A stretch of DNA of 64,000 nucleotides, taken from positions 52,033 through 116,032 of the IMG/VR virus record IMGVR_UViG_3300035698_013589; one strand, 5' to 3'. A program made the translations under genes and the position numbers. The notes beneath the pieces are model-generated. The model saw only the letters and a list, made by a program, of their open reading frames with translations. It had not been told where the DNA came from and searched no databases. Each line of letters starts with the position of its first letter. Positions within the stretch are counted from its first letter, which is position 1. Shown here one piece after another: positions 9,025 to 59,788 of this stretch. This DNA is from a virus. Lineage: Duplodnaviria > Heunggongvirae > Uroviricota > Caudoviricetes.

Positions 9025-9060
9025 CAACATTTATATACTACTAATCATTATAATATAGAA
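9022..9060 (+). promoter_or_regulatory. BRE/TATA-type promoter copy (gcaaCATTTATATActactaatcattataatatag)
   Basis: matches recurring promoter consensus seen before at least 12 genes in window. Confidence 0.5.
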
Positions 9061-9075
9061 GATGGGTGATAAAAA

Positions 9076-9444: not shown

Positions 9445-10402
9445 CTTCTTTTCATCCTTGTTTGGTGGAAAAGAAAAGAAATTACTTAAACAATTAAAAA
9501 AATTAAAGAAAGAGCACGACGCTCTTGATACAAAATTATTAAGTGGGAAAATAACAAAAAAGGAACTCGATAAGTATTATGAGTTAAAGGAGGATATTAC
9601 CAAAATGGCTAAGAAATTTATGTTAAAAGATGGAAAACTTGTTCTAAACACAGAGCAAAACAAAGGTGAAACAATGGACACAAAAATAGATGAAAGTAAA
9701 GTAAGTGCGCCAGCTCCTGTGCCACAACAAGCACCACAAGAGATGCCGCTACCACCAGCACCTGAACCTGTTCAACAACAAATACATGAACCTGTTCAAG
9801 AACCTGCGCCAATGAGAACAAGTCCTGCATATGTAGAAGCACAAATGAGAGCTGATGAAGATGCACAACAGCAAGCTATGATGCAAGCTCAACAACAAGC
9901 TCAAGCACAACAGCAAGCTATGGCTCAAGCACAACAGCAAGCTCAGATGCAAGCACAACAACAAGCTCAGATGCAAGCACAGGCACAACAACAAGCTCAG
10001 ATGCAAGCACAACAGGAAGCTCAGATGCAAGCACAACAACAAGCTCAGATGCAAGCACAACAGCAAGCTCAGATGCAAGCACAACAGGAAGCTCAGTATA
10101 GAGCACAACAAGAACAGGAACAACTTGAACTTCAAGCACAGCAAGAAGCACAAGCAAGAGTTGAACAGAGCAGTCAAATAAAATATGCTACTCAACAACA
10201 AACACCACCACAACAACCTGAAGGAAGAGCTTTAGTATATTTATCTGTTACTGATTTACCAGAACTTAATTTAGGAATAAACAAAGAAGCAATACCTGTT
10301 TTTGTAGATAAAATAAACAAAGCAATGCAGGATGCAACACCATTTCAGTTTGGTCCATACACAGTTAATGGAGCAAAGATATTAATGTACAGATTTGAAT
10401 AG
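9428..10402 (+). CDS. Q/A-rich low-complexity repeat protein
   Basis: tandem ~27-30 nt repeats (caacaagctcagatgcaagcacaa) at ~9890-10090 encode QQQAQMQAQ units. Confidence 0.5.
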   Translation: MATKNNFFSSLFGGKEKKLLKQLKKLKKEHDALDTKLLSGKITKKELDKYYELKEDITKMAKKFMLKDGKLVLNTEQNKGETMDTKIDESKVSAPAPVPQQAPQEMPLPPAPEPVQQQIHEPVQEPAPMRTSPAYVEAQMRADEDAQQQAMMQAQQQAQAQQQAMAQAQQQAQMQAQQQAQMQAQAQQQAQMQAQQEAQMQAQQQAQMQAQQQAQMQAQQEAQYRAQQEQEQLELQAQQEAQARVEQSSQIKYATQQQTPPQQPEGRALVYLSVTDLPELNLGINKEAIPVFVDKINKAMQDATPFQFGPYTVNGAKILMYRFE

Positions 10403-11788: not shown

Positions 11789-12865
11789 TTGGAAAAGACA
11801 GAGGTAACTGGTAATCAAATGAAACTTGGTGTTATTATTCTTTTATTATTGTTTCTTGCTAGCTGTACATATGTTGTTGATATACAAGTCTCAGACCAGG
11901 TTATGGATAATGTTGATACTTCGATAGAACAAGTAGAAGAGGAACCACAATATATAGTTAAACTTCTTCCAGGAGATACCATAACAAAAGAACTAACTTT
12001 CAAAGTTTATAACGATAAAGAATACACAGTCACATATGATTTGCATGAAAACTATTTAACATACTATGATTCATTACAACCTAATCTTGAAGCACCATTA
12101 GAAGATTTCTATCAACCATTCTTTGAAGAACAATATGGACAGGATATATTTGATGATATTTTATCCCAAGTAAAAGACATGACATCTGATGACAGAGAAA
12201 CAATTATTTATTTAATGCATCTTGTCGGCGGCATAGAATATAAAGAAGACTCAGAGTTTTATTATCCTTATACAATTTTGAATAATCAATTTGGAATGTG
12301 CACAGACAAATCATTTCTTATGGTAGAGTTCCTAAGACGTATGGGATATGGTGTAGCAATGTTAGAATTTTTAGATAACAATCACGTCGCTGTTGGTATC
12401 AAATGTGATTACAAACAATACGATGATTATTGTTTCATTGATACAACTTACGGATACAGAATAATTACAGACAACAAAGTAACATTCAAAAACAAAACTC
12501 CTTTATCTGAAGACGTTGATATTCTCTTTCTCTTTGATGGAAAAGAATATGATGCATCTTTAGATGTTAAAGAGTCAAAGGCTCTTCAATCCAACATATC
12601 ACGTTACTATGATATTTATGATGAGGCTTCAGGATACACTGAGTTCTTTGATGCAGTCAAAGACACAGGGTGTTTAGATGGTCGTGTGCTTGACCCAGTG
12701 CTAATGCCTGGTAGCATTATCATAATGGAGCTCAATGATATGAGCCCTTCATGCCGTGATATTATAATCAGACACAACGACAGAGTTGATGATTATAACA
12801 CTCTTATCGACGAGGGTGAGGCTATTGAGTCGTTGCTTGCTCGTTACAGTGGCTACAACGGATGA
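11789..12865 (+). CDS. transglutaminase-like cysteine protease lipoprotein
   Basis: lipobox LLFLASC; GMCTDKSFLMVEFLRRMGYGV (Cys motif), NNHVAVGIKCD (His) and downstream Asp fit transglutaminase-like core. Confidence 0.5.
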   Translation: MEKTEVTGNQMKLGVIILLLLFLASCTYVVDIQVSDQVMDNVDTSIEQVEEEPQYIVKLLPGDTITKELTFKVYNDKEYTVTYDLHENYLTYYDSLQPNLEAPLEDFYQPFFEEQYGQDIFDDILSQVKDMTSDDRETIIYLMHLVGGIEYKEDSEFYYPYTILNNQFGMCTDKSFLMVEFLRRMGYGVAMLEFLDNNHVAVGIKCDYKQYDDYCFIDTTYGYRIITDNKVTFKNKTPLSEDVDILFLFDGKEYDASLDVKESKALQSNISRYYDIYDEASGYTEFFDAVKDTGCLDGRVLDPVLMPGSIIIMELNDMSPSCRDIIIRHNDRVDDYNTLIDEGEAIESLLARYSGYNG

Positions 12866-13449
12866 GGCTGATGACCCTGAGTATACTCTAGTATATATTT
12901 GAAAAAAGAAAGAAAACCACAATACAAAAGAAATATATATATAAACGAGGTTCACTTTCCTCATCATAACAAGAGTACCTTACCATGCAGCGAAGTCGGC
13001 ATGGTTAGTATAGTAGGTGGAAATTTAATTTTCATAAGGCATACAAAACTGTGGATTTATGTGGTTTCACATATTAAGCATTGTATAACCTTGATACCAA
13101 AATTAACTTTTTGACGAAAAAATTTGAGCTAACCGAAGCCAAATAATTATTTCCCACCATTCTCAATAGTTTTCAATCCATCAGGATTTTCTCCAGGGAA
13201 AAAAACTTTTTTTTCTAAATAAAGGCCCTTTTCAAAAGACTCATGGTAATCTAATCCTCACTGTTTTTTGGGGGGTACGGTAGGCCCTTTCTGTGTTACT
13301 TGATTCAACTTAAATTTTTAATTTTGAAATCTGCAGCAGCACTTTCCTGGATAATGTATATACAATAAAACAATAGTTATAGAATATAACGTATAGTATA
13401 TATTTATTATTGTGTTACTTATCTTGGGCTGATTTGTGGCTGTGTTACC

Positions 13450-13492
13450 TGTGTTACCGCAGTAACACAAGTTACCTGCAAAAGCAGGTAAC
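13450..13492. repeat. twin perfect palindromes TGTGTTAC-cgca-GTAACACA and GTTACCTGC-aaaa-GCAGGTAAC
   Basis: read directly from sequence; share GTAACAC core with the cassette hairpins. Confidence 0.85.
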
Positions 13493-13499
13493 ACAGGGT

Positions 13500-13790
13500 G
13501 AACTTTGAAATTTGAAACTTCGTATTCAAATACAATATTGAATTTGGACTTTAAATTTAGAATTGATTTTTGGGGTTGAATTTTCAATAAAAGAATTGAA
13601 TTTTGAAAGATTGAATATTCAAAATTAGCTTCAATTTTGAATTTTAAAAAATTGGCTTTTGAAAATTGAATTTTTTTAGCTTTAAATTTTGAAATTGAAA
13701 ACCTTTTCAAAATTGAATCAGATTTCAATTTTAAAGGGGTTTAAATGGCTCAAAATTGAATCTTTTTTAATTTCTGATATTTGATATATC
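13500..13790. repeat. degenerate iteron field (TTGAATTTTGAAA / CAAAATTGAAT units, >15 copies, both orientations)
   Basis: visible tandem/inverted AT-rich repeats. Confidence 0.6.
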
Positions 13791-13839
13791 AAAATTTAAT
13801 CATGTAAGATTTAACATAAAAAGAGGAGTTAAAAACCAA

Positions 13840-14100
13840 AGTATCAAAGTAACACACTTGAAATGATGATACTTTGATACTTTGATATTTTTTACTACTT
13901 CTAAGTGTAGCTAAAATATTAAATAAACCACTCACTTTTTATATATTTGAAAGTGGGGTTTTATCGTGGTGAAATGGCAAAAATTAACAGCGAATTTTTT
14001 TTAAATCCTATTAGAAAACTATTAAAAAAATAGACTAATTTTAACTAAAAAATTTAGTATCATTTAGTATCATTTTTGGCGAAATGATACTAAACCTTTA
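13840..14100. repeat. short direct repeats (gatactttgata x2; tttagtatcat x2 plus inverted atgatactaaa)
   Basis: read from sequence. Confidence 0.5.
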
Positions 14101-14116
14101 TAAAGGGCTTTTATAA

Positions 14117-14238
14117 GTGTGTTACTTTTTTCTGACTTTTGAATTTTGAACATTAAAACGAAACATTTATATAGTAGTTAGTATATCCTAATTAATATAA
14201 AAGGTTATCATTAGCCATAAATTAATGATGGGGCAAAA
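14117..14238 (+). promoter_or_regulatory. leader module copy 1 (GTGTTACTTTT half-site, BRE/TATA 14166-14173, IR, conserved 5'UTR)
   Basis: near-identical to six downstream copies. Confidence 0.6.
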
Positions 14239-14550
14239 ATGGAAAAACAGAACAAATTTAGTTTATATATTGGTTTATTAAAATCAGACATGGAAACGGC
14301 TTTAAATTCTGAAAGTGTTTTAAATGTTGTATCAGACAATTTTTTAAAATTGGGAATCATGGGTTTTAATTCTGAAAATATAAAAGGTTTTTGGAACGGC
14401 AAACCTGAAGGGGCTTTAAAAATTTCTTTTATTAATACTTTTGATATTCATTTTAAAGATTTTTTAAAAGTGGTTGAATCTTTAAAAATTCAATTAGAGC
14501 AAGAATCTATTTTAATAGAGCAAGAGCAAGTTTTATATAATTTTGCTTAA
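14239..14550 (+). CDS. cassette gene 1, hypothetical small protein
   Basis: starts at ATGGAAA of conserved leader; ends at oligo-T. Confidence 0.6.
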   Translation: MEKQNKFSLYIGLLKSDMETALNSESVLNVVSDNFLKLGIMGFNSENIKGFWNGKPEGALKISFINTFDIHFKDFLKVVESLKIQLEQESILIEQEQVLYNFA

Positions 14551-14685
14551 ATTTTTTTTTCTCATGAAGCGTGTTACTTTCCTTGAATCCATGCAACAAA
14601 GTAACACAGATATATTTATATAGTAGTTAGTATATCCTAATTACATAAGGTTATCATTAACCATAAAATAATGATGGGGCAAAAA
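14551..14685 (+). promoter_or_regulatory. leader module copy 2: oligo-T, hairpin GTGTTACTTT...AAAGTAACAC, BRE/TATA, IR ATCATTAA-n7-TTAATGAT, GGGG RBS
   Basis: sequence identity with other copies. Confidence 0.7.
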
Positions 14686-15072
14686 ATGGAAACAATAAAA
14701 GAAAATAGCGAATATAAAATATTTGCAGTTAGTAGCTTTATGGCACATACAACAGCACAAATTTTTAAAGTTGTGGGTTTTCAGGAAAGTAAACCAATAG
14801 TAGTTTTTAAAAATCATAAAGGAAATTATGAAAGAAAAAAAAGACTTTTGGACATGGACAAAAAAGATATTATTATAATTCCTTTAAATGATTGTATTTT
14901 GAAAGCAGACAGCGAAACAGGGAATTTTTTTGGTAATGCGTGTTTTAATTTCTTAAATTCTGAATCACAAATTATAGAGCAATTAAAACTTAATTTAATT
15001 CAGGGTTTTGAATCAAGATGGAAATTTAACAGCGTGGACGAAAACCGAAATTATACAGAACTTTCTATTTAA
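14686..15072 (+). CDS. cassette gene 2, hypothetical protein (true start ATGGAAAC; track start MMGQK is leader read-through)
   Basis: conserved leader analysis; in copy 1 and copy 3 the upstream ATGATGGGG is out of frame or hits a stop. Confidence 0.6.
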   Translation: METIKENSEYKIFAVSSFMAHTTAQIFKVVGFQESKPIVVFKNHKGNYERKKRLLDMDKKDIIIIPLNDCILKADSETGNFFGNACFNFLNSESQIIEQLKLNLIQGFESRWKFNSVDENRNYTELSI

Positions 15073-15208
15073 TTTTTTTTTTTCGTTTCAGGCGTGTTAC
15101 TTCTCCTGAATCAAGCAAAAAGTAACACGGATAAGTTTATATAGTAGTTAGTATATCCTAATTATAAGAAAAGGTTATCATTAACCATAAATTAATGATG
15201 GGGTAAAA
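15073..15208 (+). promoter_or_regulatory. leader module copy 3
   Basis: hairpin GTGTTACTT...AAAGTAACAC 15094-15128, TATA 15136-15143. Confidence 0.7.
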
Positions 15209-15460
15209 ATGGAAATATGCGAAACGGCAACCGATAAAAAAGGCAGTTATTCAGAATTTGACAATAATGAAGAAAGGGTTTATATTTTTAATAAAAGTGA
15301 TGAATGTATAAACTATTTTGAAGCTTACGACCTTGAAGAATTGGCTTTAAATAATCACAAAAAAAGCGAACACTTATATTAATTTTTTTTTCTTGAATCA
15401 TGTGTTACTTTGTAAACGAATCAGGATAAAAGTAACACGGAAACATTTATATAGTAGTTA
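15209..15460 (+). CDS. cassette gene 3 (not in supplied track); ORF reads through oligo-T and next leader, possibly decayed
   Basis: ATGGAAATATGC start after leader (leader ATGATGGGG hits TAA here); manual translation gives 83 codons ending TAG at 15458. Confidence 0.3.
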
Positions 15461-15516
15461 GTATATCCTAATTACATAAGGTTATCATTAACCATAAATT
15501 AATGATGGGGCAGAAC
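15383..15516 (+). promoter_or_regulatory. leader module copy 4
   Basis: hairpin 15401-15437, TATA ~15445. Confidence 0.7.
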
Positions 15517-15888
15517 ATGAAAAAATCAGAACTTAAAACAACAACTTTAAAAAAGTTAATGACAGCACACAGAATAAACCAACAATGGCACAATAAAAAT
15601 AAATCAGGTGGCAATTTTGGTTTAAATTTCTATTTTGGCGAAACTTTTGAAAGGGGAAGAGATAAAAGTTTAAGTGGCTATTATAATGTAGATGGCGATT
15701 TATACAGCTTATCTTATGGTAATGCTTACGGCGTGGGGCAGAAAATACCAAAAGAAATTCTAAAAGATATTAACCTATTAGCTAAATATTTATTACACTT
15801 AAATAATAATGGTGATTGGTTGAAATTTCTCCAAGATAATAATTTATTTGAAGAGTATCAAGAAAGACAGGGGCTTAAAAATGAATAA
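15517..15888 (+). CDS. cassette gene 4, hypothetical protein
   Basis: start ATGAAAAAATCA following conserved GGGGCAGAAC. Confidence 0.55.
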   Translation: MKKSELKTTTLKKLMTAHRINQQWHNKNKSGGNFGLNFYFGETFERGRDKSLSGYYNVDGDLYSLSYGNAYGVGQKIPKEILKDINLLAKYLLHLNNNGDWLKFLQDNNLFEEYQERQGLKNE

Positions 15889-15902
15889 AAGAAATTTAGA
15901 AT

Positions 15903-16214
15903 ATGAGGAGAAATTTAAAAAATATCTTTTTAAATTTGATTTGCAGACACATAAAGAAATCTGTAAAAATATCAATGTTAGACATAATCAGGGTGGTAAA
16001 ATTGATTAGTAAACAATATATCAAAGAATTAGAATTTAAAGACATTTTTGAATTTTATAATTATGTTGTGGAATCAAAAATAAATGGCAATTACAGACAG
16101 ACAAAAGACTTTATTAACAAAATGAATCAAGAACAAAAACGGCAGTTTTTAGGGTTTTTAGTTTGTGAGGGGCATAGCGAACACATAGCAGAATTTAACA
16201 AAATGTTAATTTAG
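15903..16214 (+). CDS. hypothetical protein
   Basis: ORF in track, no own leader. Confidence 0.35.
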   Translation: MRRNLKNIFLNLICRHIKKSVKISMLDIIRVVKLISKQYIKELEFKDIFEFYNYVVESKINGNYRQTKDFINKMNQEQKRQFLGFLVCEGHSEHIAEFNKMLI

Positions 16215-16222
16215 GGGGCAAA

Positions 16223-16498
16223 ATGACAGATAAAAAAGAAGAGCCAAAACCTGAATATATCACAATTGTTGATATTAGAAAAAGCAATTTAACCAATAAA
16301 ATCTTTATTGTATCACAAGATTATATAATGCAAACTGATTTTTGTAATGGTGGATTTTATCAGGAACAAAGCACAGAATTAGAATTTGTAAACAGGAAAG
16401 ACCTTTTATTTACTATTCAGAAAAAAAAGGAACTTTCAAACAACACTATAAAAGAAGTGGGGCAGTTAGAAAAACTTTTAACAGGGGGCAAAAAATGA
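16223..16498 (+). CDS. hypothetical protein
   Basis: GGGGGCAAAATG RBS/start identical in style to leader RBS. Confidence 0.5.
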   Translation: MTDKKEEPKPEYITIVDIRKSNLTNKIFIVSQDYIMQTDFCNGGFYQEQSTELEFVNRKDLLFTIQKKKELSNNTIKEVGQLEKLLTGGKK

Positions 16499-16668
16499 AA
16501 ACATTTAGAGTAGAAATTTTTGAATATGCAACAGGAAAAACAGAAGCCGTTATTGGAACAGGATTAAACGAAGATAGGGCAGAAAAAAGAGCCATGACAG
16601 GTTTAAGCCGTTGTAATTCAGATTATGGAACAAGAAGCATAGACGAAAAAACAGGCGAAGTTTTGTAA
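16495..16668 (+). CDS. small hypothetical protein (57 aa, not in track)
   Basis: ACAGGGGGCAAAAAATG RBS/start; ATGA overlap with previous stop; ends at oligo-T. Confidence 0.4.
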   Translation: MKTFRVEIFEYATGKTEAVIGTGLNEDRAEKRAMTGLSRCNSDYGTRSIDEKTGEVL

Positions 16669-16802
16669 TTTTTTTTCTCAATAATGTGTTACTTTTTTTG
16701 TGAATCAGGATAAAAGTAACACGGAAACATTTATATATTAGTTAGTATATCCTAATTATAAGAAATGGTTATCATTAACCACAAATAATGATGGGGCATA
16801 AA
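16669..16802 (+). promoter_or_regulatory. leader module copy 5
   Basis: hairpin 16686-16722, TATA 16731-16738. Confidence 0.7.
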
Positions 16803-17180
16803 ATGGAAACTAAAAAGTTAATAGTAGGGCTTAATAAGTTGTTTAAGCATAAAGTAGATGATGGTGAAGAGATACCACAAAAAGAATTAAAGGGCTATTT
16901 AGAGCAGTCTAATGTTATTATGGTAATACCAAAAATTAGAGAACTAAAAAATTATTTAGTTGAAAATTTTGATGTTTCGGAATCAAAAATTCCTGAATTA
17001 AATTATAGTTCTGAAAATAGTGGAACTTCTAAATATTCATGTGATTTTATGAAAATGATTTTGGAACTATTAAAACACACAGAATTAGAAAGTTTTAAAC
17101 TTTCAGTTGCAAAAGATTACCCAATGACAATAGAAACTAAAGAGTATAAAGTTATTATTGCACCAAGAGTAGATAATTAA
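16803..17180 (+). CDS. cassette gene 5, hypothetical protein
   Basis: starts ATGGAAACT after leader. Confidence 0.6.
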   Translation: METKKLIVGLNKLFKHKVDDGEEIPQKELKGYLEQSNVIMVIPKIRELKNYLVENFDVSESKIPELNYSSENSGTSKYSCDFMKMILELLKHTELESFKLSVAKDYPMTIETKEYKVIIAPRVDN

Positions 17181-17314
17181 TTAATTTTTTTTCTCAACAA
17201 TGTGTTACTTTTCTTGAATCAGGATAAAAGTAACACGGAAACATTTATATAGTAGTTAGTATATCCTAATTACATAAGGTTATCATTAACCATAAATTAA
17301 TGATGGGGCAAAAA
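17181..17314 (+). promoter_or_regulatory. leader module copy 6
   Basis: hairpin 17202-17236. Confidence 0.7.
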
Positions 17315-17992
17315 ATGGAAACAATAAATGTTTATGAAAACGGCGTATTAATTGAATATGCAGAATGGGAAAAATTAGAGGAATCAGAACAAACCAATTT
17401 CTTAACTACTGATGACTTTGCAGATTGTGATTTTTTAAAAATTAAGGGCGAAATTGCAGTAAATTTTATTAATCATGATGACAAAATATTTTATATAATC
17501 TTTCCTGAATTTGAAGAGCATGAGGACATTATTAAATTTATTCTATTAAGATTTTTTTCAGATGATTTTAAGAAATCATTTACTGAATTGGATACATGGC
17601 ATACAGACCAAAAAGAAAAACAACAATATAAAGCTATATTAGAGACCAATATAGTCTTATTTTATAGGGGTGGCGTGGGTTATTCTTATGGGGTTCATAG
17701 ATTAGAGCCATTAAAATTAAATGAAGCTATTGGCTATTTAAACGGCTTTTGTGGGTATATTGATGTTGAGAATGATGAAGATTATAAAGAATCTGAAATT
17801 ATTGAGACAGCAAACAAAAAACTTTTTTCTGATTTTGAGTTAGATTATACATATATAGGGCATGAGACTATTAATAAATGCAAAAATTGTAATAGTTTTT
17901 TGCATAAAGAAATCCATGAGACAAAAGATAAATACCCTTTTGTTTGCTTAAATTGTGATGAAAATATGTTTGAATTTGAGGTTGAAAAATGA
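17315..17992 (+). CDS. cassette gene 6, hypothetical protein with C-terminal zinc ribbon (CKNC...CLNC)
   Basis: starts ATGGAAACA after leader. Confidence 0.6.
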   Translation: METINVYENGVLIEYAEWEKLEESEQTNFLTTDDFADCDFLKIKGEIAVNFINHDDKIFYIIFPEFEEHEDIIKFILLRFFSDDFKKSFTELDTWHTDQKEKQQYKAILETNIVLFYRGGVGYSYGVHRLEPLKLNEAIGYLNGFCGYIDVENDEDYKESEIIETANKKLFSDFELDYTYIGHETINKCKNCNSFLHKEIHETKDKYPFVCLNCDENMFEFEVEK

Positions 17993-18108
17993 AAATTAAA
18001 ACAAAATGTAAAAGTTGTGAAAGTGGTTTTTCAAAAGAAAAATTTTTATTCAATTGTTGTCCTATTTGTAAAGGAAAAAATTTAATAGAGGTTGAAAATG
18101 AAAACTGA
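17989..18108 (+). CDS. 39-aa zinc-ribbon mini-protein (CKSC...CPIC)
   Basis: ATGA overlap with upstream stop; four Cys in two CxxC pairs. Confidence 0.35.
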   Translation: MKIKTKCKSCESGFSKEKFLFNCCPICKGKNLIEVENEN

Positions 18109-18448
18109 ACAAATGCAAAACTTATTAATTGGGGCTTTTGAGGGTGGTTCTAATTATTGGTATCAAATAAAAGAATTTATCAACAGAAAACCAAAACAGG
18201 AAACTCCTGAATATTTGCCGTCCTATATAACTACTCCTTTTAGTAAAGATGGGGCTTTAATAATTTCAGATATTGAGGGAGATGAAGAGGACAAAACTTT
18301 AAATTTGAAAGCGTTAAAATCAGGGGCAAAAATCATGCATGAAAAATATCCTAAACATTATGCAGATGTTTTAAATGAAGATGATGATTGTATAACAGCA
18401 GATGTATATTTACAATGTTGTCTTTTTGGAGAAATTATTTTTGGTTAA
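18098..18448 (+). CDS. hypothetical protein (track start 18092 is a TTG; ATG at 18098 preferred)
   Basis: ORF ends at oligo-T before leader copy 7. Confidence 0.5.
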   Translation: MKTEQMQNLLIGAFEGGSNYWYQIKEFINRKPKQETPEYLPSYITTPFSKDGALIISDIEGDEEDKTLNLKALKSGAKIMHEKYPKHYADVLNEDDDCITADVYLQCCLFGEIIFG

Positions 18449-18540
18449 TTTTTTTTTCTTTAATCATGTGTTACTTTTCTTTGAATCAGGATAAAAAAGT
18501 AACACGGAAACATTTATATATTAGTTAGTATATCCTAATT
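18449..18540 (+). promoter_or_regulatory. leader module copy 7 (hairpin 18468-18505, TATA 18513-18520) followed by a second tandem promoter copy (TATA 18588-18595)
   Basis: sequence identity. Confidence 0.65.
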
Positions 18541-18671
18541 ATATGAATGGGATAACAAATAAAAAAATGGGATACACAAACGAAACATTTATATATTAGT
18601 TAGTATATCCTAATTACAACAAAGAAAAAAGTGTTTTTGGACACTCAAAAAATCCAAAGGTGGAAAATAAA

Positions 18672-19265
18672 ATGCGAAAAGAAATCATTGAAAAAACAAT
18701 TAAAAAGTTTGAAGAATTTTCAACAGAAGAGCAAGAAGAAATCATTGAAAATTACAGAGATATTAATACTGATTTCCAAGATTGGAACGATTATATATTA
18801 TCTGATTTTGTTGAATCAGTAAAAAAACAAACAGATTTAGAAATAGAGCCAAAAGATATTTTATGGGCAGTTGGTGATAGAAATGCTAAATTTGGGGTTT
18901 ATTCTAAAGTTATTATAAATCAATTAATCAGTAGATTTGAAGATAAAGGAGTTTACGATATTAATACTCCTGAAAAATTGGGTAGTTTTCTAAATCATTT
19001 AGGTGGTGGTATGTGTAACAAAAATAGCACAGAAACAGGGTTAGCAGACGTTTATTTTGAAGAGGATACAGATAAACAGGCAGACCAAAACAAAGCCGTT
19101 AAAGAGCAAATAAACGATATTATAGACACTATTATAGAGTTATGTAGTAAATATCACACACAGAACGAAGAAGCTTTTAATCATTCCATGAGTGATGAAG
19201 CCGTTAAGGATACTCTTATTGCTAATGAATATGAGTTTGAAGTAGAAACAAAGAGGATTTACTAA
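18672..19265 (+). CDS. acidic protein, tentatively ArdA-like antirestriction/DNA-mimic
   Basis: very acidic; DFQDWNDYILSDFVE resembles the FQDWEG region of ArdA N-domain; preceded by promoter, IR AGTGTttttggACACT and GGTGG RBS; track start at 18660 is GTG. Confidence 0.35.
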   Translation: MRKEIIEKTIKKFEEFSTEEQEEIIENYRDINTDFQDWNDYILSDFVESVKKQTDLEIEPKDILWAVGDRNAKFGVYSKVIINQLISRFEDKGVYDINTPEKLGSFLNHLGGGMCNKNSTETGLADVYFEEDTDKQADQNKAVKEQINDIIDTIIELCSKYHTQNEEAFNHSMSDEAVKDTLIANEYEFEVETKRIY

Positions 19266-19266
19266 A

Positions 19267-19512
19267 ATGGAATCTGATTATTTAAAAGACAAATTAAGAG
19301 AAATCAAAGATTTGCAGACCAAAGTTACAAGGAGTGATTTACAGGGTATTGTTATGGTTGAAGCAAAAAATCTGAACAAAGAAAAATCAGACGAAATTGA
19401 AAATATATTTTTACTTTTTTGTGATGAAGAACTTAATATCAATGAAGCAAAAAGGTATTTGTTGGATTTGGTGGATTTGTCAGTAATAGATAAATTACAG
19501 GTGGAAAAATGA
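19267..19512 (+). CDS. hypothetical protein
   Basis: ORF in track, ATGA-type coupling. Confidence 0.4.
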   Translation: MESDYLKDKLREIKDLQTKVTRSDLQGIVMVEAKNLNKEKSDEIENIFLLFCDEELNINEAKRYLLDLVDLSVIDKLQVEK

Positions 19513-19892
19513 AAATTGAAAAAGAAATGTTTAAGGATAGCCATTTTTTGATGGCTCAGGAAAAATATCAGATAGCAAAACACTTTCAAAGATTTGTGAA
19601 GAATGGATTTAAACCTAATGATTTTTTAAAAAGGGTTTATGAACATTTACATTTACATTGTGGATTTATTGCACACTATAATATCAATGGTTTTTATCAG
19701 ACATATTTTAATGGTAGTAAATCAGATTTGAGGACATTTGCAGAGCATTTTGTGAATCCTGAAAAACTCATGCCATTTGGAGATACATATAATAATTATG
19801 CAGTAAGTGGCGAATATGAGGACATTAACAAAGTTATAGCAGATATTTTGCTTGAAAACAATATATTGGAGATGATTCAAAATGAAAATTGA
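19509..19892 (+). CDS. hypothetical protein
   Basis: ORF in track. Confidence 0.4.
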   Translation: MKIEKEMFKDSHFLMAQEKYQIAKHFQRFVKNGFKPNDFLKRVYEHLHLHCGFIAHYNINGFYQTYFNGSKSDLRTFAEHFVNPEKLMPFGDTYNNYAVSGEYEDINKVIADILLENNILEMIQNEN

Positions 19893-20275
19893 TATTGAAA
19901 AGGCAAAAATCCATGCAAAAATAATGGAACATTTACAAAAATATTTCAAAGATTATGGAATGTTATCCAAAGATGATTTTTTGGGAATGATTATTCAAAG
20001 TGGTAAAGAAATCAAAGAGGAAAAGGACAATGAATAAACGAAAAGAAGAACGGATACAGGGGATTATAGACGACCTTTTAGAAGTGTTATCTTATGAAGA
20101 TTTGGAACAAAAACTCAAAGAAATTGCAGAGCATGAAGCAATTTCATTAAGAAGTTTAGAGGGCGAAAATGAAGATTGAAGAACTTGAAGAAAGGGAATT
20201 TATGGTAAATTCCAAAGGAAAAGTTTTGATAATTCAGGTAATGAATACAGGAACGAAAACGGAGAAATTGAGTAT

Positions 20276-20518
20276 TTGGATTCAGGAATGAAATTTAAAA
20301 TATTCTGTTATCAAAGAAGTTGTTATTTTGGAGATGATTCAGTTTTTGATTCATTGGAAGATATTAAAGAGCAATTAATATCTTATCACAGCAACGATTG
20401 GGAAGAGGACATAAAAGTATTGGAAAACATGGCTTTACATACACTTTTAGAATTTTTTGAGTGGGCTATACATGACGAATCAGAAAATCATATTGTTTTG
20501 ATTGGTGGAGATGAATAA
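20276..20518 (+). CDS. hypothetical acidic protein
   Basis: ORF in track. Confidence 0.35.
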   Translation: MDSGMKFKIFCYQRSCYFGDDSVFDSLEDIKEQLISYHSNDWEEDIKVLENMALHTLLEFFEWAIHDESENHIVLIGGDE

Positions 20519-20520
20519 AA

Positions 20521-21363
20521 ATGGAAATTGAAAAATTTAAAATAAGTATTGAGTTGTTAAAACGGCTTAATAACAGGAAATCAGAAGCACAAGAAATCAG
20601 GGGCAAAGCTATTGAAAAAGCACACACTAAAAAGTGGGAAAATGAAAGAAAAGTTCATCAGGTTTTTTATGATGAAGAAAGAAAAGCCAATGATATTTAT
20701 GAGAAGCTTGAAAAACAGATTGATTTTGAAAGTTCTTCTTATAGAGCCGACATTTTACAATACAACAGAGTTTTATCTTTCATGAAAATTGTAGAGGAAT
20801 CTATAAAAGAAAAACAAGATGTATCAGATTATGAAGTTTATCATTTTGATTATTTGAAAGATGAACAAGGACATAATGATTACTCACAGGAAAGACAGCA
20901 AGTAAACTATAAGGAAATTGGAACTCTTGAAGATAAGCACACTTTGAATATTAAAGTTTACATAACTGAAAACAGAAAACCAAAAAATAAGTTTTCTTTG
21001 ATTGTTGCAGGACGGAGTTTTTTCAATACTGATGTTATAGAAATTCCTTATGAATATGGTATAAATGCACATAATCATAATGCTAATATCTTTAAATTAG
21101 TAAGGGATATGCCGACAGAAAAATCATTAATTGCTTATTTTGAAAACAATAAGGACAAGATTTTAGCAGATTTCAGAAAAGAGCATACAAAACTTGATAC
21201 TGAATTTATCAATATTGTTGAAGAAGTCAAGGACAGCAAAGAGTGGCGAATTGCTTATCTTGAAAAAAGAAAAAGATACTTTGAAAATTCAGTATCAAAT
21301 CACACAGAAGAAAAGGAATATATCCACATTTTAAAATTCCTAAAGGAGTTGCAAGAATGTTAG
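20521..21363 (+). CDS. hypothetical protein
   Basis: 280-aa ORF, charged. Confidence 0.5.
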   Translation: MEIEKFKISIELLKRLNNRKSEAQEIRGKAIEKAHTKKWENERKVHQVFYDEERKANDIYEKLEKQIDFESSSYRADILQYNRVLSFMKIVEESIKEKQDVSDYEVYHFDYLKDEQGHNDYSQERQQVNYKEIGTLEDKHTLNIKVYITENRKPKNKFSLIVAGRSFFNTDVIEIPYEYGINAHNHNANIFKLVRDMPTEKSLIAYFENNKDKILADFRKEHTKLDTEFINIVEEVKDSKEWRIAYLEKRKRYFENSVSNHTEEKEYIHILKFLKELQEC

Positions 21364-21847
21364 AAATTATAAAATCAGTCAGGATTTGCGACACCTTTAA
21401 TCTATCTTTAGTTAGATTTGACAGCACACAAGGTTATGAGGTGCAATATAGTAATGATGACACAATATTAGACACAGACGGAATTTACAGCACTAAAAGA
21501 AGTGGACTAATAGCATTCAATGATTTTTTAAAATCATTAATCAAGGTGGTGGAACAATGAAAGTAAGCCAATTAATTCAGGAACTCCAAAAGGTAAAAAA
21601 CAAAGATGTAGAGGTTTACATTTTTGTAGGAGATGAAGCACAGATTAACAGCGAAATAATGCCTATTGACATGGTGGACGACAGCATGGACGATAGAGTA
21701 GATTTGAATATGGGGTTTTAAAGATGACAAAATTTGATAGCAGATTAAAGGAAAATATTGACGAATGGTTTGAGTTGAGAAAAGTCATGAGTAAAGACGA
21801 TTACAATATGATAAGAAGTTTTACACATAAGACGGAGAACAAATAAA

Positions 21848-22429
21848 ATGGGATACGAAACGACAGCACTATTTATTTCAGGTGGATACAGAAAAGAAGG
21901 ACACAAAGGATATTGTGGAGTAGAAGCCACTCTTGAAATGGGCAAAATTGCTTATGGGGAACTTCATGAATTAATGAAAAAATATACACTTCCAAAAGAA
22001 GAAAAAGACCAAATTAACAAAGAATTAGAGCAATATAAAACACAACATAAATATTGTTTTACAGCAGAGGGCGATTACACAGAAGCACTTAATGACATGA
22101 CAGAAGCACAAAAGAAAGTTCAGATTAATAAATTGAATAGGTTTGAAAAAGTTTTAGATAAAAAACTTCCTTATGTTTATCATGGCGACCACAACAAACA
22201 ACAATATGAGGATTGTTACGGAGATATTTTATTGGTTGTTGGACTTGAAGAATTAAAAATTGCAGTTATCAAAGAACAAGCAAGATTAATCACTAAAGGC
22301 GATTATGTGTTTGGATATAGACGATTTAATATTATCTTGAAAATGATTGAGGAATTTTCAGATGTTAAACAATGGGGAAGTTCAAAGATTGTAAAAGATA
22401 AAATAAAAGTAGTTTTGTGGGGGCATTAG
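21848..22429 (+). CDS. hypothetical protein
   Basis: ORF in track. Confidence 0.5.
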   Translation: MGYETTALFISGGYRKEGHKGYCGVEATLEMGKIAYGELHELMKKYTLPKEEKDQINKELEQYKTQHKYCFTAEGDYTEALNDMTEAQKKVQINKLNRFEKVLDKKLPYVYHGDHNKQQYEDCYGDILLVVGLEELKIAVIKEQARLITKGDYVFGYRRFNIILKMIEEFSDVKQWGSSKIVKDKIKVVLWGH

Positions 22430-22432
22430 AAA

Positions 22433-22633
22433 ATGGCAGAAAAAAATATACATAATTATGAAGCAGATGTTAGCAAAATAGATTCAAAATGTTTGTTATG
22501 CAAAACAAAAATCACAGACACAGAATTTGAATATGAAGATTATTTTATTGTATTCAGAGGATTTACAAAAGAATGTGTTGAGGGTTTTATTTGTTTCAAA
22601 TGTTTAAAAGAATCCATGAGGTTAAAAAAATGA
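22433..22633 (+). CDS. small zinc-ribbon protein (CLLC...CFKC)
   Basis: paired CxxC motifs. Confidence 0.45.
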   Translation: MAEKNIHNYEADVSKIDSKCLLCKTKITDTEFEYEDYFIVFRGFTKECVEGFICFKCLKESMRLKK

Positions 22634-22833
22634 ATATGTTTGAACAATTAAGTAAGGAAATAGTAGTTTTTTGCAAGAATCCAAAAAACTCACATCAAAA
22701 ATGTGTAGAGTTTGTTCAGTATGAATTATATTTACGAACAATAAGCAAGAACTATTTACAAGAAATAGCAAGACAACGAGAGCCAAAAGGCGATATAATC
22801 TTCCATGAAGAAGATAAAAGATTGGGGAAATGA
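22630..22833 (+). CDS. hypothetical protein
   Basis: ATGA overlap with upstream stop. Confidence 0.4.
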   Translation: MNMFEQLSKEIVVFCKNPKNSHQKCVEFVQYELYLRTISKNYLQEIARQREPKGDIIFHEEDKRLGK

Positions 22834-22836
22834 AAA

Positions 22837-23265: not shown

Positions 23266-23274
23266 TAATTTAAG

Positions 23275-23779: not shown

Positions 23780-23924
23780 TTTGTCAAGATTGTGCAGACA
23801 ATGTAGAACACCACATAACAGGGTTATGTTTACATTGTAGAGAAGAAAAAATCAAGGAGTTAGAAGCCCAAATAAAAGAACTTAGTTTATGATTTTGGGA
23901 TAAAACAATGAAAAATAGGATAAA

Positions 23925-24022
23925 TATAACGAAACATTTATATATTAGTTAGTATATCCTAATTACATCAAAGAAAAAAAGTGTTATTGAACACTAAAAA
24001 AATATCAATGGGGAAAAATAAA
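23925..24022 (+). promoter_or_regulatory. promoter (TATA 23937-23944) plus IR AGTGTT-attg-AACACT (23980-23995) leader
   Basis: same architecture as leader before 18672. Confidence 0.6.
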
Positions 24023-59691: not shown

Positions 59692-59788
59692 TTTTTTTTT
59701 ATTTATATTCATAATCGAAAGAAATAAAAAGGAGAACAACTCCTGTTCATGTTAATGAAGACTGAACCTCTTCATTATTTGTTTGTTT

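What the first reader, a model, noticed from the sequence alone, without database searches (positions are those of the whole stretch)
14117..18600. Array of seven near-identical ~130-nt leader modules, each driving a different unrelated small gene
The leader occurs seven times in 4.4 kb. It reads TAATTTTTTTTTCTC (oligo-T after the upstream stop), then hairpin GTGTTACTTT...AAAGTAACAC, then GGAAACATTTATATAGTAGTTAGTATATCCTAATTACATAAGG, then TTATCATTAACCATAAATTAATGATGGGGCAAAAAATGGAAAC. Copies lie at ~14117, 14551, 15073, 15383, 16669, 17181 and 18449. They are almost base-for-base identical. The ORFs they precede share no detectable similarity. Non-coding conservation far above coding conservation points to cassette shuffling by homologous recombination between leaders, giving a hypervariable accessory island. 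It also points to strong selection on a regulatory element. The region looks like a plug-in locus for small effector genes, for example anti-defence or host-takeover genes. It is the most repetitive structured part of the window.
Basis: seen in the sequence. Interest (0 to 1): 0.8.

Follow-up and report, generated by a model that had tools for sequence, protein, structure and literature searches.

The report
Repeated terminator-promoter cassettes in viral early-gene array
An uncultivated virus carries about seven copies of a ~130-base unit (transcription stop, inverted repeat, strong promoter, leader) between small unrelated genes, and related viruses hold different genes between the same units; this kind of shuffling cassette is already known from T4-type phages and archaeal viruses.

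Summary
The repeats are real. A 29-nt core, TTTATATA[G/T]TAGTTAGTATATCCTAATTA, occurs nine times exactly (0 expected by chance). Six copies sit in complete ~130-nt modules. Each module runs: stop codon, T8-11 run, inverted repeat GTGTTACTTT…AAAGTAACAC 9-11 nt later, GAAACA-TTTATATA promoter, palindromic box, 5'UTR hairpin, ribosome-binding site, ATG.

The same architecture is present in all seven related metagenomic genomes that include this region. It is therefore not an assembly artefact.

Gene content between modules differs among relatives. In the closest long relative, all three homology blocks in the array end at the 3' edge of a module. Leader sequences are also homogenised within each genome.

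The best reading is composite terminator/promoter/leader cassettes. They make each small gene group its own transcription unit and act as recombination hot spots. The closest known equivalents are the PeSL cassettes of T4-type phages and the conserved BRE/TATA regulatory sequences of early genes in archaeal viruses.

The promoter does not match the sigma-70 consensus. It matches the archaeal BRE + TATA consensus, and oligo-T runs follow stop codons with no hairpin before them. Whether the host is archaeal or bacterial stays unresolved.

The first conserved array gene has a phage SAM-lyase-like predicted fold.

The parts
13293..13860 (+). Control region upstream of the array. It holds seven GTGTTAC/GTAACAC 7-mers in direct and inverted orientation (13293-13494, 13849) next to an AT-rich block of TTGAAWTT-type iterons (13500-13800). 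It may be an origin or a regulatory hub.
   Evidence: GTGTTAC occurs 25 times against 4.9 expected, and 20 of the 25 lie in 13293-18505. Repeats. The same two features adjoin the array in L003/L016, L007, L008, L010 and L001.
14117..14241 (+). Module 1 (partial). Left repeat arm only (14119-14125), no T-run, promoter core 14155-14198, 5'UTR hairpin, GGGG ribosome-binding site, ATG at 14239.
14239..14550 (+). ORF1 (103 aa). It is the one cassette gene conserved in all relatives (59-75% identity). Its predicted fold is closest to phage SAM lyase and SAM-AMP lyase.
   Evidence: AlphaFold2 mean pLDDT 95.2. Foldseek best hits 9gab, 9lqd, 6zm9, 6znb, E 3e-6 to 2e-5, TM 0.68-0.75.
14548..14688 (+). 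Module 2 (complete). Stop TAA, T9 at 14552-14560, inverted repeat 14571-14607, TATA-like box 14615-14622, core to 14643, UTR hairpin, ATG at 14686. It drives a 128-aa ORF (14686-15072) with no homologue in the relatives.
15070..15211 (+). Module 3 (complete). T11 at 15073-15083, repeat 15094-15128, core 15136-15164, ATG at 15209. It drives a 57-aa ORF (15209-15382).
15380..15519 (+). Module 4 (complete). T9 at 15383-15391, repeat 15402-15438, core 15446-15474, ATG at 15517. It drives an operon of four ORFs (15517-15888, 15903-16214, 16223-16498, 16495-16668).
   Evidence: The last ORF (57 aa) is 93% identical to L017 11749-11922.
16666..16805 (+). Module 5 (complete). T8 at 16669-16676, repeat 16686-16722, core 16730-16758, ATG at 16803. 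It drives a 125-aa ORF (16803-17180). In L008 the homologue of this ORF sits directly after ORF1 plus one module.
17178..17317 (+). Module 6 (complete; used as the exemplar). Stop 17178-17180; T8 17185-17192; repeat arms 17202-17212 and 17226-17236; GGAAACA 17237-17243; TTTATATA 17244-17251; palindromic box within 17252-17272; inferred start site about 17273-17276; alternative UTR hairpins GGTTA/TAACC (17278-17291) and TTATCATTAA/TTAATGATGG (17280-17306); GGGG 17305-17308; ATG 17315. It drives ORFs 17315-17992, 17989-18108 and 18092-18448.
   Evidence: The 225-aa ORF has only 27 representatives among 1.84 billion proteins.
18446..18674 (+). Module 7 plus tandem class-2 promoter. T9 at 18449-18457, repeat 18468-18505, core 18513-18541 with no gene of its own. 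Then two GGGATA(A/C) direct repeats (18549, 18569), a second core 18588-18616, UTR hairpin AGTGTT/GACACT, AAGGTGG, ATG at 18672 (197-aa ORF).
   Evidence: The same tandem arrangement is in L017 at 12569-12791.
23893..24010 (+). Ninth core copy (class 2). GGGATAA/AGGATAA repeats, core 23937-23965, UTR hairpin, ATG at 24008 of the conserved SprT-like gene. It marks the far end of the variable region.
9030..9075 (+). Diverged promoter of the same family (AGCAACA-TTTATATA). Others lie at 38682, 43358, 52857 and 58045. They share only the upstream A-rich element, TTTAWATA, and a TATACT-like element 10 nt downstream.
59692..59700 (+). Example of a T-run directly after a stop codon outside the array (also 46327 and 53582). 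The same putative stop signal is used genome-wide, with no hairpin before it.
   Evidence: Bacterial-type hairpin+T terminators are not enriched: 4 found against 4.3 in shuffles.

Best explanation
The repeats are composite transcription cassettes. They punctuate the hypervariable early-gene region of a large, uncultivated, AT-rich virus.

Each cassette appears to do three things.

(1) It ends the upstream transcript. An oligo-T run starts at the stop codon. A fixed 9-11 nt downstream lies an inverted repeat whose arms carry the 7-mer GTGTTAC. That 7-mer also occurs as stand-alone sites clustered in the control region upstream of the array, so it is probably a protein recognition site. The repeat may form a hairpin, or bind a factor that insulates neighbouring units, for example by stalling the polymerase on the T-run.

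(2) It restarts transcription from a strong promoter. The invariant part is (A/G)AAAC-N-TTTA(T/A)ATA. A conserved palindromic box (TTAGTATAT(A/C)CTAA) follows and overlaps the inferred start site, about 23 nt downstream. That is where a repressor would sit to shut early genes off.

(3) It supplies a short 5'UTR with a stem-loop abutting the ribosome-binding site, then the start codon.

Because about 130 nt of near-identical sequence flanks every gene group, the cassettes also serve as substrates for homologous recombination. Genes are then gained, lost and swapped as self-sufficient units, and the cassettes are homogenised within each genome.

Shown here: the anatomy, its conservation across relatives, gene turnover, and breakpoints at cassette edges. 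Inferred: promoter and terminator activity, early timing, the protein that binds GTGTTAC, and recombination as the mechanism.

Which polymerase reads the promoter is open. The sequence fits archaeal TBP/TFB-type promoters and oligo-T termination best. I put that at about 50%, against a bacterial host using a phage-encoded sigma factor or RNA polymerase.
For: Anatomy and non-randomness.

The same architecture recurs in all seven other related genomes whose contigs include this region, with PolB 50-79% or ORF1 59-75% identical.

The T-run-to-repeat gap is 9-11 nt in 15 of 19 modules from 8 genomes. The repeat-to-TATA distance varies from 7 to about 110 nt, so the repeat belongs with the stop signal. 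The repeat folds at -12 to -14 kcal/mol, z -2.0 to -3.7. Its arms co-vary: G-C to A-T at the base, TT/AA to CC/GG or TC/GA inside, and three T:G wobbles.

Promoter: the sigma-70 scan finds no excess (87 against 92.6) and flags none of the cores apart from a match at copy 1 that uses the TATA-like box as its second hexamer. TTTATATA plus the upstream A-rich element persists in L001, L002 and L008, where the downstream part differs. The archaeal TATA box is TTTAWATA with a purine-rich BRE (PMC11065993), and TTTATATA in methanogens (PMC5512572). Archaeal RNA polymerase stops at T5-6 without a hairpin, and downstream sequence modulates this (PMC2253867).

UTR hairpin: 80.7% of cells paired against 72% in shuffles (0/500). 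Pair 21-39 is C-G in the window and U-A in the relatives.

Turnover: only 4 of 11 array ORFs have homologues in relatives' arrays, while the flanks are 66-75% identical. Homology blocks with L017 (14160-14703, 16486-16788, 18437-18667) all end at the 3' edge of a cassette. Leader variants are genome-specific. Contigs L018 and L019 both break about 130 nt after ORF1, inside the repeat.

Early or anti-defence flavour: ORF1 has a SAM-lyase-like fold.
Against: - There are no transcript data. Start sites, stop sites and timing are all inferred.
- The UTR hairpins are thermodynamically weak: -5 to -7.5 kcal/mol, z -0.4 to -1.9. Their covariation rests largely on one lineage split.
- The order 'T-run, then hairpin' is the reverse of a bacterial intrinsic terminator, so termination is unexplained if the host is bacterial.
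- One homology block (16486) begins at a gene start with no cassette, so not all exchanges used cassettes.
- Within-genome uniformity could reflect recognition by genome-specific factors instead of gene conversion.
- Host evidence conflicts. Archaeal-type: RFC small subunit, PolB, a weak PCNA hit, two PTH2 genes, and Thg1 in a relative. Bacterial or phage-type: Ro60 with YrlA-like RNAs, a class II CCA-adding enzyme, and clamp-loader and PTH2 matches to rhizobial T4-like phages.
Confidence: 0.72

Rival explanations
1. The virus infects bacteria, and the conserved AT-rich 35-nt motif is the promoter of a virus-encoded RNA polymerase or sigma factor. Models are the virion polymerases of phiKZ/AR9-type phages, or a T4 gp55-type sigma that reads a TATAAATA-like box. 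The resemblance to BRE/TATA is then coincidental. The cassette logic (stop, start, shuffle) stays the same.
For: - AR9 and phiKZ early promoters are extended, highly conserved AT-rich motifs (AAATATATATTAT-N6-G; PMC5312081).
- TTTAAATA matches the T4 late box TATAAATA at 7 of 8 positions.
- The clamp loader is as close to T4-superfamily phage proteins (2e-42) as to archaeal RFC.
- Ro60 with YrlA-like RNA, a class II CCA-adding enzyme and a SAM-lyase-like first gene are typical of bacteria and phages.
- The only phage PTH2 genes found are in rhizobial T4-like phages.
- Relatives of PolB sit mostly in bins labelled bacterial.
Against: - No RNA polymerase or sigma domain was found among the roughly 65 window ORFs scanned.
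- PolB has no tblastn match in 50,697 phage records.
- T4 late promoters have no conserved upstream element, whereas GAAAC is conserved here.
- T-runs without a preceding hairpin are not a known stop signal for these systems.
- The taxon labels on the bins are mutually inconsistent, which points to mis-binning.
Confidence: 0.4
2. The array is an integron-like site-specific cassette system. The GTGTTAC…GTAACAC inverted repeat is a recombination site, analogous to attC, cut by a tyrosine recombinase. Cassettes would be captured and excised as circles at this site.
For: - Every gene group is followed by an imperfect inverted repeat with a conserved core.
- Relative L001 has a tyrosine integrase (Pfam 1.3e-16) divergently oriented right at the head of its array, with GGAGTAACAC repeats beside it.
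- Module 1 has only a half-site. A reversed pair of arms brackets 13846-14128.
Against: - The window, L016 and L017 have no integrase at this locus.
- Homology breakpoints lie at the 3' end of the leader, about 100 nt past the repeat, not within it.
- The cassettes carry their own promoters, unlike integron cassettes.
- The arms do not fit the RYYYAAC/GTTRRRY cores, and there are no extrahelical bases.
- GTGTTAC also occurs as direct repeats in the control region, like a binding site for a regulator or an origin protein.
Confidence: 0.06
3. The modules are selfish miniature mobile elements (MITE-like or homing-type) that spread into intergenic gaps. Their regulatory features would be secondary.
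For: - High copy number.
- An internal inverted repeat.
- Within-genome homogeneity.
Against: - All copies have the same orientation.
- Each spans exactly from a stop codon to the next start codon.
- Orthologous positions are kept between genomes: before and after ORF1, the tandem pair, and the SprT gene.
- There are no target-site duplications and no terminal inverted repeats at the module ends.
- No transposase was found.
Confidence: 0.05
4. The repeats are an assembly or sequencing duplication artefact.
For: Repeats of this kind do break assemblies: L018 and L019 both end inside a leader.
Against: - The copies differ from one another (64-89% identity). Each is joined to unique flanking ORFs in frame-consistent fashion.
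- The same architecture was recovered independently from JGI, ENA and Logan assemblies of different samples.
Confidence: 0.01

Closest known systems
PeSLs (promoter-early stem-loops) of T4-type phages (Arbiol et al. 2010, PMC2839356; Comeau et al. 2014, PMC4122927)
   Same: - Motifs of about 100 nt, repeated tens of times.
- They begin at the upstream stop codon in an AT-rich stretch.
- They combine a stem-loop, a strong early promoter and the Shine-Dalgarno/start of the next gene.
- They are concentrated in hyperplastic regions in front of orphan genes.
- Indels and replacements between related phages map to them.
- They are proposed to mediate modular shuffling by homologous recombination.

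Here: the same span from stop to start, the same genomic context, and breakpoints at cassette edges.
   Different: [quoted passage not shown] Here there is no sigma-70 match, and the invariant element looks like BRE/TATA.
- PeSL stem-loops are G/C-rich terminators placed within or around the promoter, with no sequence-conserved arms. Here the stem has an invariant 7-mer that is also used as stand-alone sites. It sits at a fixed distance after an oligo-T run and is not followed by U's.
- Here there is an extra operator-like palindrome and a UTR hairpin.
- Membership of the T4 superfamily is unproven.
- Mini-circles were not tested.
Conserved early-gene regulatory sequences of archaeal viruses (SIRV2 and others; Bhoobalan-Chitty et al. 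2024, PMC11065993)
   Same: - Many small, mutually unrelated, unannotated genes are each preceded by a highly similar regulatory sequence.
- That sequence consists of a purine-rich BRE plus the TATA box TTTAWATA.
- It is interpreted as strong immediate-early promoters controlled by a small repressor.
- It marks anti-defence genes.

Here: the same motif type, the same contrast between leader and gene conservation, an operator-like palindrome over the start site, and a first gene with an anti-restriction-type fold.
   Different: - Those viruses infect Sulfolobales and are rod-shaped, filamentous or spindle-shaped, with the genes at genome termini. Here the genome is large (relatives of 127-183 kb) with PolB and a clamp loader, and the host is unknown.
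- No terminator/inverted-repeat unit or shuffling role was described there.
- No Aca-like regulator has been identified here.
Early promoters of virion RNA polymerases in phiKZ/AR9-type jumbo phages (PMC5312081)
   Same: A long, AT-rich, nearly invariant motif precedes dozens of early genes. It is unrelated to the host sigma-70 consensus.
   Different: - The motif sequence is different.
- No split beta/beta' polymerase genes were seen in the window.
- Those promoters are not embedded in stop-to-start cassettes with inverted repeats.
Integron gene-cassette arrays
   Same: An array of unrelated small genes in one orientation, each followed by an imperfect inverted repeat. One relative has a divergent tyrosine recombinase at the head of the array.
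   Different: - The cassettes have their own promoters.
- The repeat lacks the attC core sequences.
- Breakpoints are not at the repeat.
- The recombinase is absent from the window and from two relatives.

Membership tests
PeSL cassettes of T4-type phages | Repeated intergenic motif of about 100 nt that spans from the upstream stop codon to the SD/start of the next gene | tested here: met
   Six complete modules of 136-142 nt run from TAA to ATG.
PeSL cassettes of T4-type phages | Promoter that matches the sigma-70 -35/-10 consensus | tested here: not met
   The sigma-70 scan is not enriched (87 against 92.6). Apart from a match at copy 1 that uses the TATA-like box as its second hexamer, no core scores 9/12 or better. 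The best bacterial reading is GAAACA-18-TATCCT, which is only 3/6 in the -35 hexamer. L001 lacks even that -10.
PeSL cassettes of T4-type phages | Stem-loop that acts as a transcription terminator or attenuator | tested here: inconclusive
   A stem of 9-11 bp is present (-12 to -14 kcal/mol). The T-run comes before it, not after it, so it is not a canonical intrinsic terminator. Its function was not assayed.
PeSL cassettes of T4-type phages | Located in hyperplastic regions in front of orphan genes, with differences between related genomes mapping to the motifs | tested here: met
   7 of 11 array ORFs have no homologue in relatives' arrays. 3 of 3 homology blocks in the array end at a module edge.
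PeSL cassettes of T4-type phages | The host genome is a T4-type myovirus | tested here: inconclusive
   The clamp loader resembles rhizobial and Campylobacter T4-like proteins (2e-42 to 1e-36). The gene order clamp, loader, PolB resembles T4. But PolB has no match in any of 50,697 phage records. No structural genes lie in the window.
PeSL cassettes of T4-type phages | Formation of circular excision products (mini-circles) | not testable with these tools
   This needs reads or PCR across junctions.
Archaeal-virus early regulatory sequence (BRE/TATA) | TATA box TTTAWATA immediately preceded by a purine-rich BRE | tested here: met
   (A/G)AAAC-N-TTTA[TA]ATA is present in 14 window promoters and in L001, L003/L016, L007, L008, L009 and L017. 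The consensus comes from PMC11065993 and PMC5512572.
Archaeal-virus early regulatory sequence (BRE/TATA) | Precedes clustered, small, mutually unrelated, poorly conserved genes | tested here: met
Archaeal-virus early regulatory sequence (BRE/TATA) | The virus infects an archaeon and is transcribed by the host RNA polymerase with TBP and TFB | tested here: inconclusive
   For: archaeal-type RFC small subunit, PolB and two PTH2 genes, Thg1 in a relative, oligo-T runs after stop codons, and one homologue in a Pacearchaeota bin. Against: Ro60 with YrlA-like RNAs, a class II CCA-adding enzyme, matches to T4-like phages, and bins labelled bacterial.
Archaeal-virus early regulatory sequence (BRE/TATA) | Immediate-early expression and repression by an Aca-like DNA-binding protein | not testable with these tools
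   There are no transcriptomes. A palindromic box overlaps the inferred start site, but no regulator has been identified.
Integron | IntI-type tyrosine recombinase adjacent to the array | tested here: not met
   None at 12866-14238 in the window, nor in L016 or L017. One is present only in L001.
Integron | attC sites with RYYYAAC…GTTRRRY cores, and promoterless cassettes | tested here: not met
   The arms are GTGTTAC…GTAACAC, and each unit carries its own promoter.
Bacterial intrinsic terminator | G+C-rich hairpin immediately followed by a U-run | tested here: not met
   The T-run lies 9-11 nt upstream of the hairpin, and the hairpin is followed by CGGAAACA. The terminator scan finds 4 against 4.3 in shuffles, none in a module.

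The most novel reading that the evidence does not exclude
The window belongs to a large (about 130-180 kb), so far undescribed lineage of viruses of low-GC archaea. One homologue sits in a DPANN/Pacearchaeota bin. In this reading, host-type BRE/TATA promoters and oligo-T terminators are packaged into PeSL-like shuffling cassettes. A dedicated factor binds GTGTTAC exactly one polymerase footprint downstream of each T-run and acts as a roadblock or insulator, possibly coupling termination to re-initiation at the next promoter, as in the Pol III-like recycling described for archaeal RNA polymerase. This would be the first such cassette system in an archaeal virus. It would also give a ready map of that lineage's early and anti-defence genes.
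Probability: 0.25. Interest if true: 0.75.

Novelty: new variant of a known kind. Interest (0 to 1): 0.5.

Why it matters
The cassette gives a sequence handle, the promoter core plus the GTGTTAC repeat. With it, early and accessory genes can be picked out across a whole uncultivated virus lineage: 281 PolB relatives in metagenomes and none among 50,697 sequenced phages. The same strategy was used successfully to find anti-defence genes in archaeal viruses.

It also extends the PeSL principle, that regulatory cassettes double as recombination sites, beyond sigma-70 promoters and T4-type coliphages.

If the promoter is truly archaeal, the locus would show how an archaeal virus organises and shuffles its early genes. 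It would also offer a compact test bed for oligo-T termination and for how downstream sequence modulates it.

Tried and rejected
Searches that found nothing:
- Megablast of 13000-25000, distant blastn of one leader, and tblastn of PolB (C-terminal half and full length) against 50,697 phage records: no match.
- Exact-pattern scans of IMG/VR for the promoter core: 0 hits, twice.
- Exact look-ups of window proteins in the contig index: not on record.
- Rfam: nothing in the array.

Host assignment did not resolve:
- PolB relatives in GTDB genomes fall in bins labelled Thermotogaceae, Bacilli (two), Planctomycetaceae and Rhodobacter. The labels are inconsistent, so I read them as mis-binning.
- Homologues of the CCA-adding enzyme carry no organism names.
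- PDB searches with the helicase and Ro60 were uninformative.

Annotation of cassette ORFs:
- Pfam and PHROGs gave nothing significant for 9 of 9 cassette ORFs.

Readings I considered and dropped:
- Sigma-70 promoter and bacterial intrinsic terminator: not enriched and wrong geometry.
- crAss-like virion-polymerase early promoters: that work found no common early motif.
- Upstream ATGATG as the start codon: out of frame in modules 1 and 3.
- A eukaryotic giant-virus origin, suggested by the GVMAG label of L002: overlapping ATGA gene junctions and SD motifs argue for a prokaryotic host.
- Integron-like, MITE-like and artefact readings: see the rival explanations.

Full report
OBSERVATION

The element is present at every stated position. 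A 29-nt core, TTTATATA[G/T]TAGTTAGTATATCCTAATTA, occurs nine times with no mismatch. All copies are on the + strand: 14166, 14615, 15136, 15446, 16730, 17244, 18513, 18588 and 23937. None was found in 100 dinucleotide-preserving shuffles.

Six copies (m2-m6, plus m7 up to its promoter) belong to modules with the same order of parts:
- stop codon TAA
- a run of 8-11 T
- 9-10 nt further on, an inverted repeat GTGTTACTTT-(13-17 nt)-AAAGTAACAC
- GGAAACA
- TTTATATA
- GTAGTTAGTATATCCTAATTA
- about 40 nt that can form a hairpin
- GGGG
- 5-6 nt
- ATG

Whole modules are 64-89% identical pairwise, so 'base-for-base identical' applies only to the core and the repeat arms.

Copy 1 lacks the T-run and the right repeat arm. 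Copy 7 has no gene and is followed 75 nt later by a second promoter copy. Five more diverged promoters (9030, 38682, 43358, 52857, 58045) keep only AAAC-N-TTTA(T/A)ATA and a TATACT-like element 10 nt downstream.

The array ORFs show no similarity to one another.

GENOMIC CONTEXT

The window is virus-like. It is about 32% G+C, and nearly all genes are on one strand. Annotated genes:
- a clamp-loader (RFC-like) gene
- a family B DNA polymerase interrupted by an intein/endonuclease
- a Holliday-junction resolvase
- a class II CCA-adding enzyme
- two PTH2 peptidyl-tRNA hydrolases
- Ro60/TROVE
- an XPD/DinG-like helicase
- an SprT-like protease

There is no nucleotide or PolB-protein match in 50,697 phage records. 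PolB does have 281 metagenomic relatives.

The array lies between a 1.37-kb non-coding control region and a conserved block that starts with the SprT-like gene.

RELATIVES

I fetched related contigs through PolB and through the first array gene. Every relative that includes this region shows the same architecture. This holds for L017, L016 (the same contig as L003), L007, L008, L009 (its locus is also seen on L010, L018 and L019) and the more distant L001.

Three points follow.

First, the T-run always starts at the stop codon, and the repeat follows at 9-11 nt in 15 of 19 modules. The distance from the repeat to the TATA-like box ranges from 7 nt (window, L017) to about 110 nt (L001). The repeat therefore belongs with the T-run, not with the promoter.

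Second, the repeat arms keep the core (G/A)TGTTAC…GTAACA(C/T) everywhere. The inner stem co-varies (TT/AA, CC/GG, TC/GA) and shows three T:G wobbles.

The 7-mer GTGTTAC occurs 25 times in the window against 4.9 expected. Twenty of the 25 lie between 13293 and 18505. Seven of those are stand-alone direct or inverted copies in the control region, next to a block of TTGAAWTT iterons. The relatives have the same cluster. A motif used both singly and in pairs is most simply a protein recognition site, although the + strand could also fold (-12 to -14 kcal/mol, z -2.0 to -3.7).

Third, the block (A/G)AAAC-N-TTTATATA is the part of the promoter that survives in the most distant relatives (L001, L002, L008). 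The downstream box TAGTTAGTATAT(A/C)CTAATTA is shared only by the closer ones. It contains the palindrome TTAGTATATACTAA, which is perfect in L016, L017 and L007. In L016 a second copy of this box lies just upstream of the TATA-like element.

A second promoter class serves the 197-aa gene at 18672 and the SprT-like gene at 24008, and their L017 counterparts. It replaces the repeat with two (T)GGGATA(A/C) direct repeats 20-21 nt apart.

WHAT THE PARTS ARE

The TTTATATA block is almost certainly a promoter:
- It sits a fixed distance upstream of SD-ATG.
- It is oriented with the genes.
- It also precedes non-array genes, and a 339-nt non-coding stretch.

It does not look like a sigma-70 promoter. 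The consensus scan finds no excess over shuffles (87 against 92.6). It picks up none of the cores, apart from a match at copy 1 that uses the TATA-like box as its second hexamer. The best bacterial reading (GAAACA, 18 nt, TATCCT/TATACT) has a poor -35 hexamer and leaves the most conserved bases unexplained.

It does match the archaeal promoter consensus. That consensus is a purine-rich BRE directly upstream of TTTAWATA (PMC11065993), with TTTATATA being the methanogen form (PMC5512572). This places the start site about 23 nt downstream, exactly where conservation ends.

The T-runs point the same way. Of 11 runs of T>=8 in the window, 8 begin directly after a stop codon, and none is preceded by a hairpin. 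Bacterial-type terminators are not enriched. Archaeal RNA polymerase terminates at T5-6 without a hairpin, and the sequence just downstream modulates both termination and re-initiation (PMC2253867).

A long invariant AT-rich motif can also be the promoter of a phage-encoded polymerase, as in AR9 and phiKZ (PMC5312081). That reading cannot be excluded.

The 5'UTR can form two alternative hairpins. The SD-proximal one (TTATCATTAA/TTAATGATGG) is supported by a compensatory C-G to U-A change between the window and its relatives. It also beats shuffled and slid controls: 80.7% of cells paired against 72% in shuffles (0/500) and 29-64% when slid. Its energy is weak, however. I treat the UTR structure as probable and its role (stability or translation control) as unknown.

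GENE TURNOVER

Between the conserved first gene and the SprT-like gene, the window, L017 and L016 carry 9.7, 6.0 and 9.5 kb of largely different genes.

Of the 11 window ORFs inside the array, only four have homologues in any relative's array:
- ORF1
- a 57-aa ORF that is 93% identical in L017
- 15903-16214
- 16803-17180

The flanking genes are 66-75% identical. In L008 the homologue of the gene after module 5 follows ORF1 directly.

At nucleotide level, homology with L017 inside the array falls into three blocks: 14160-14703, 16486-16788 and 18437-18667. All three end at the 3' edge of a cassette. The third block is a cassette alone, with different genes on both sides.

Leader variants are genome-specific. 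For example the UTR is ATCATTAA…TTAATGAT in all window copies and ATTATT…AATAAT in all L017 copies. That is concerted evolution.

Two independent contigs end about 130 nt after ORF1, inside the repeat.

Recombination is still an inference, and one breakpoint (16486) lies at a gene start with no cassette.

GENE FUNCTIONS

None of the nine array ORFs scanned has a significant Pfam or PHROG match. The 225-aa ORF has only 27 representatives among 1.84 billion proteins and is a fusion of two small modules.

ORF1 is the one conserved gene and the first in the array. It gives a confident model (pLDDT 95.2). Its best matches in the PDB are phage SAM lyases and a CRISPR-associated SAM-AMP lyase (E 3e-6 to 2e-5, TM 0.68-0.75), ahead of generic PII-like proteins. 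From general knowledge, SAM lyase is the first early gene of phage T3 and an anti-restriction function. The match is at fold level only, and I did not check catalytic residues.

HOST DOMAIN

This stays open.

Archaeal-type features:
- The promoter and the T-runs.
- The clamp loader's best solved relatives are archaeal RFC small subunits (2e-43, against 4e-29 for T4 gp44).
- PolB matches only archaeal PolB structures.
- The clamp has a weak hit to Haloferax PCNA.
- There are two PTH2 genes whose best solved relatives are archaeal. Pth2 is predominantly archaeal and eukaryotic (PMC4929431).
- A relative carries Thg1.
- One PolB homologue is labelled Pacearchaeota.

Bacterial or phage-type features:
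- The clamp loader is equally close to rhizobial and Campylobacter T4-like phages.
- The only phage PTH2 genes are in Sinorhizobium T4-like phages.
- There is a Ro60 gene followed by tRNA-like repeats, one of which matches the bacterial YrlA family (E 5e-6).
- There is a class II CCA-adding enzyme.
- A relative carries a Panacea domain.
- Genome bins with relatives carry inconsistent, mostly bacterial labels.

I put the archaeal reading at about one half.

COMPARISON WITH KNOWN SYSTEMS

The function and evolutionary behaviour match the PeSL cassettes of T4-type phages: composite terminator/promoter motifs from stop codon to SD, in hyperplastic regions, that mediate modular shuffling (PMC2839356, PMC4122927). 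The defining sigma-70 promoter is not present here, and the stop signal is built differently. So this works like a PeSL but should not be filed as one.

The promoter type, and the contrast between conserved leaders and unrelated small genes, match the early-gene regulatory sequences of archaeal viruses (PMC11065993). An archaeal host is unproven.

Integron, MITE-like and artefact readings fail specific tests; see the rival explanations and the membership tests.

VERDICT

This is a real, well-structured regulatory repeat whose logic is already known. It appears in a new sequence guise and in an undescribed virus lineage. The unusual points worth following up:
- the fixed oligo-T to GTGTTAC-repeat unit
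- the archaeal look of the transcription signals in a genome that mixes archaeal-type and bacterial-type accessory genes
- the direct use of the motif to catalogue early and anti-defence candidates

Noticed in passing
window 58087-60260: A Ro60/TROVE gene (Pfam 1.8e-31) is followed by four tandem units of about 80-110 nt. Each begins (A)TGGTGGCGTAG. One scores as YrlA (Y RNA-like), E 5e-6, below the gathering score. ARAGORN's 'tRNA-Thr' at 60109-60179 (Rfam tRNA only 30 bits) is probably the tRNA-like domain of one of these RNAs and not a true tRNA.
   Followed up: partly
window 52857-53190: A promoter of the same family (AGAAACC-TTTATATA) is followed by 339 nt with no ORF and with visibly higher G+C and self-complementarity. 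This may be a structured non-coding RNA. No Rfam match at E<=1 apart from a chance miRNA hit.
   Followed up: partly
window 4626-7771: The family B DNA polymerase is split into two overlapping ORFs. The first carries an intein splicing domain plus an HNH/resolvase-like endonuclease. Relatives have an uninterrupted 686-aa PolB (L003) or a 1065-aa version (L017).
   Followed up: no
window 41129-41515 and 48649-49005: Two genes encode PTH2-type (archaeal/eukaryotic-type) peptidyl-tRNA hydrolase. With the CCA-adding enzyme (39787-41139), Ro60, and RtcB and Thg1 in relative L016, this makes an extensive RNA-repair and translation-rescue gene set.
   Followed up: partly
window 13500-13800: A dense block of TTGAAWTT/AAATTGAA iterons in both orientations lies beside the GTGTTAC cluster. 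The position is conserved in all relatives. It may be a replication origin or a genome end.
   Followed up: partly
window 9428-10402 (repeats 9836-10140): A glutamine/alanine-rich protein is encoded by repeats with an 18-30 nt period (CAAGCACAACAGCAAGCTCAGATG). Homologous repeat proteins are in L002 and L003.
   Followed up: no
L001 16145-17284 (minus strand): A tyrosine integrase sits divergently at the head of the early-gene array in this relative only, with two GGAGTAACAC direct repeats at its 5' end. This suggests that some members of the lineage are temperate, or that the 7-mer relates to recombination.
   Followed up: partly
L018 and L019 (ends, about 130 nt after ORF1): Two independent assemblies of the same relative both terminate inside the first leader after ORF1. 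The repeats break short-read assemblies, so arrays are probably under-represented in metagenomic contigs.
   Followed up: no
window 54989-55345: A stand-alone response-regulator receiver domain (CheY-like, Pfam 2.6e-15) is encoded by the virus.
   Followed up: no
window 13831-13893: This is the only canonical-looking hairpin-plus-T terminator near the array (CAAAGTATCAAAG…CTTTGATACTTTG followed by ATATTTTTT). Its loop contains a GTAACAC site whose 14-nt partner lies 255 nt downstream at 14115-14128, in reversed arm order.
   Followed up: no
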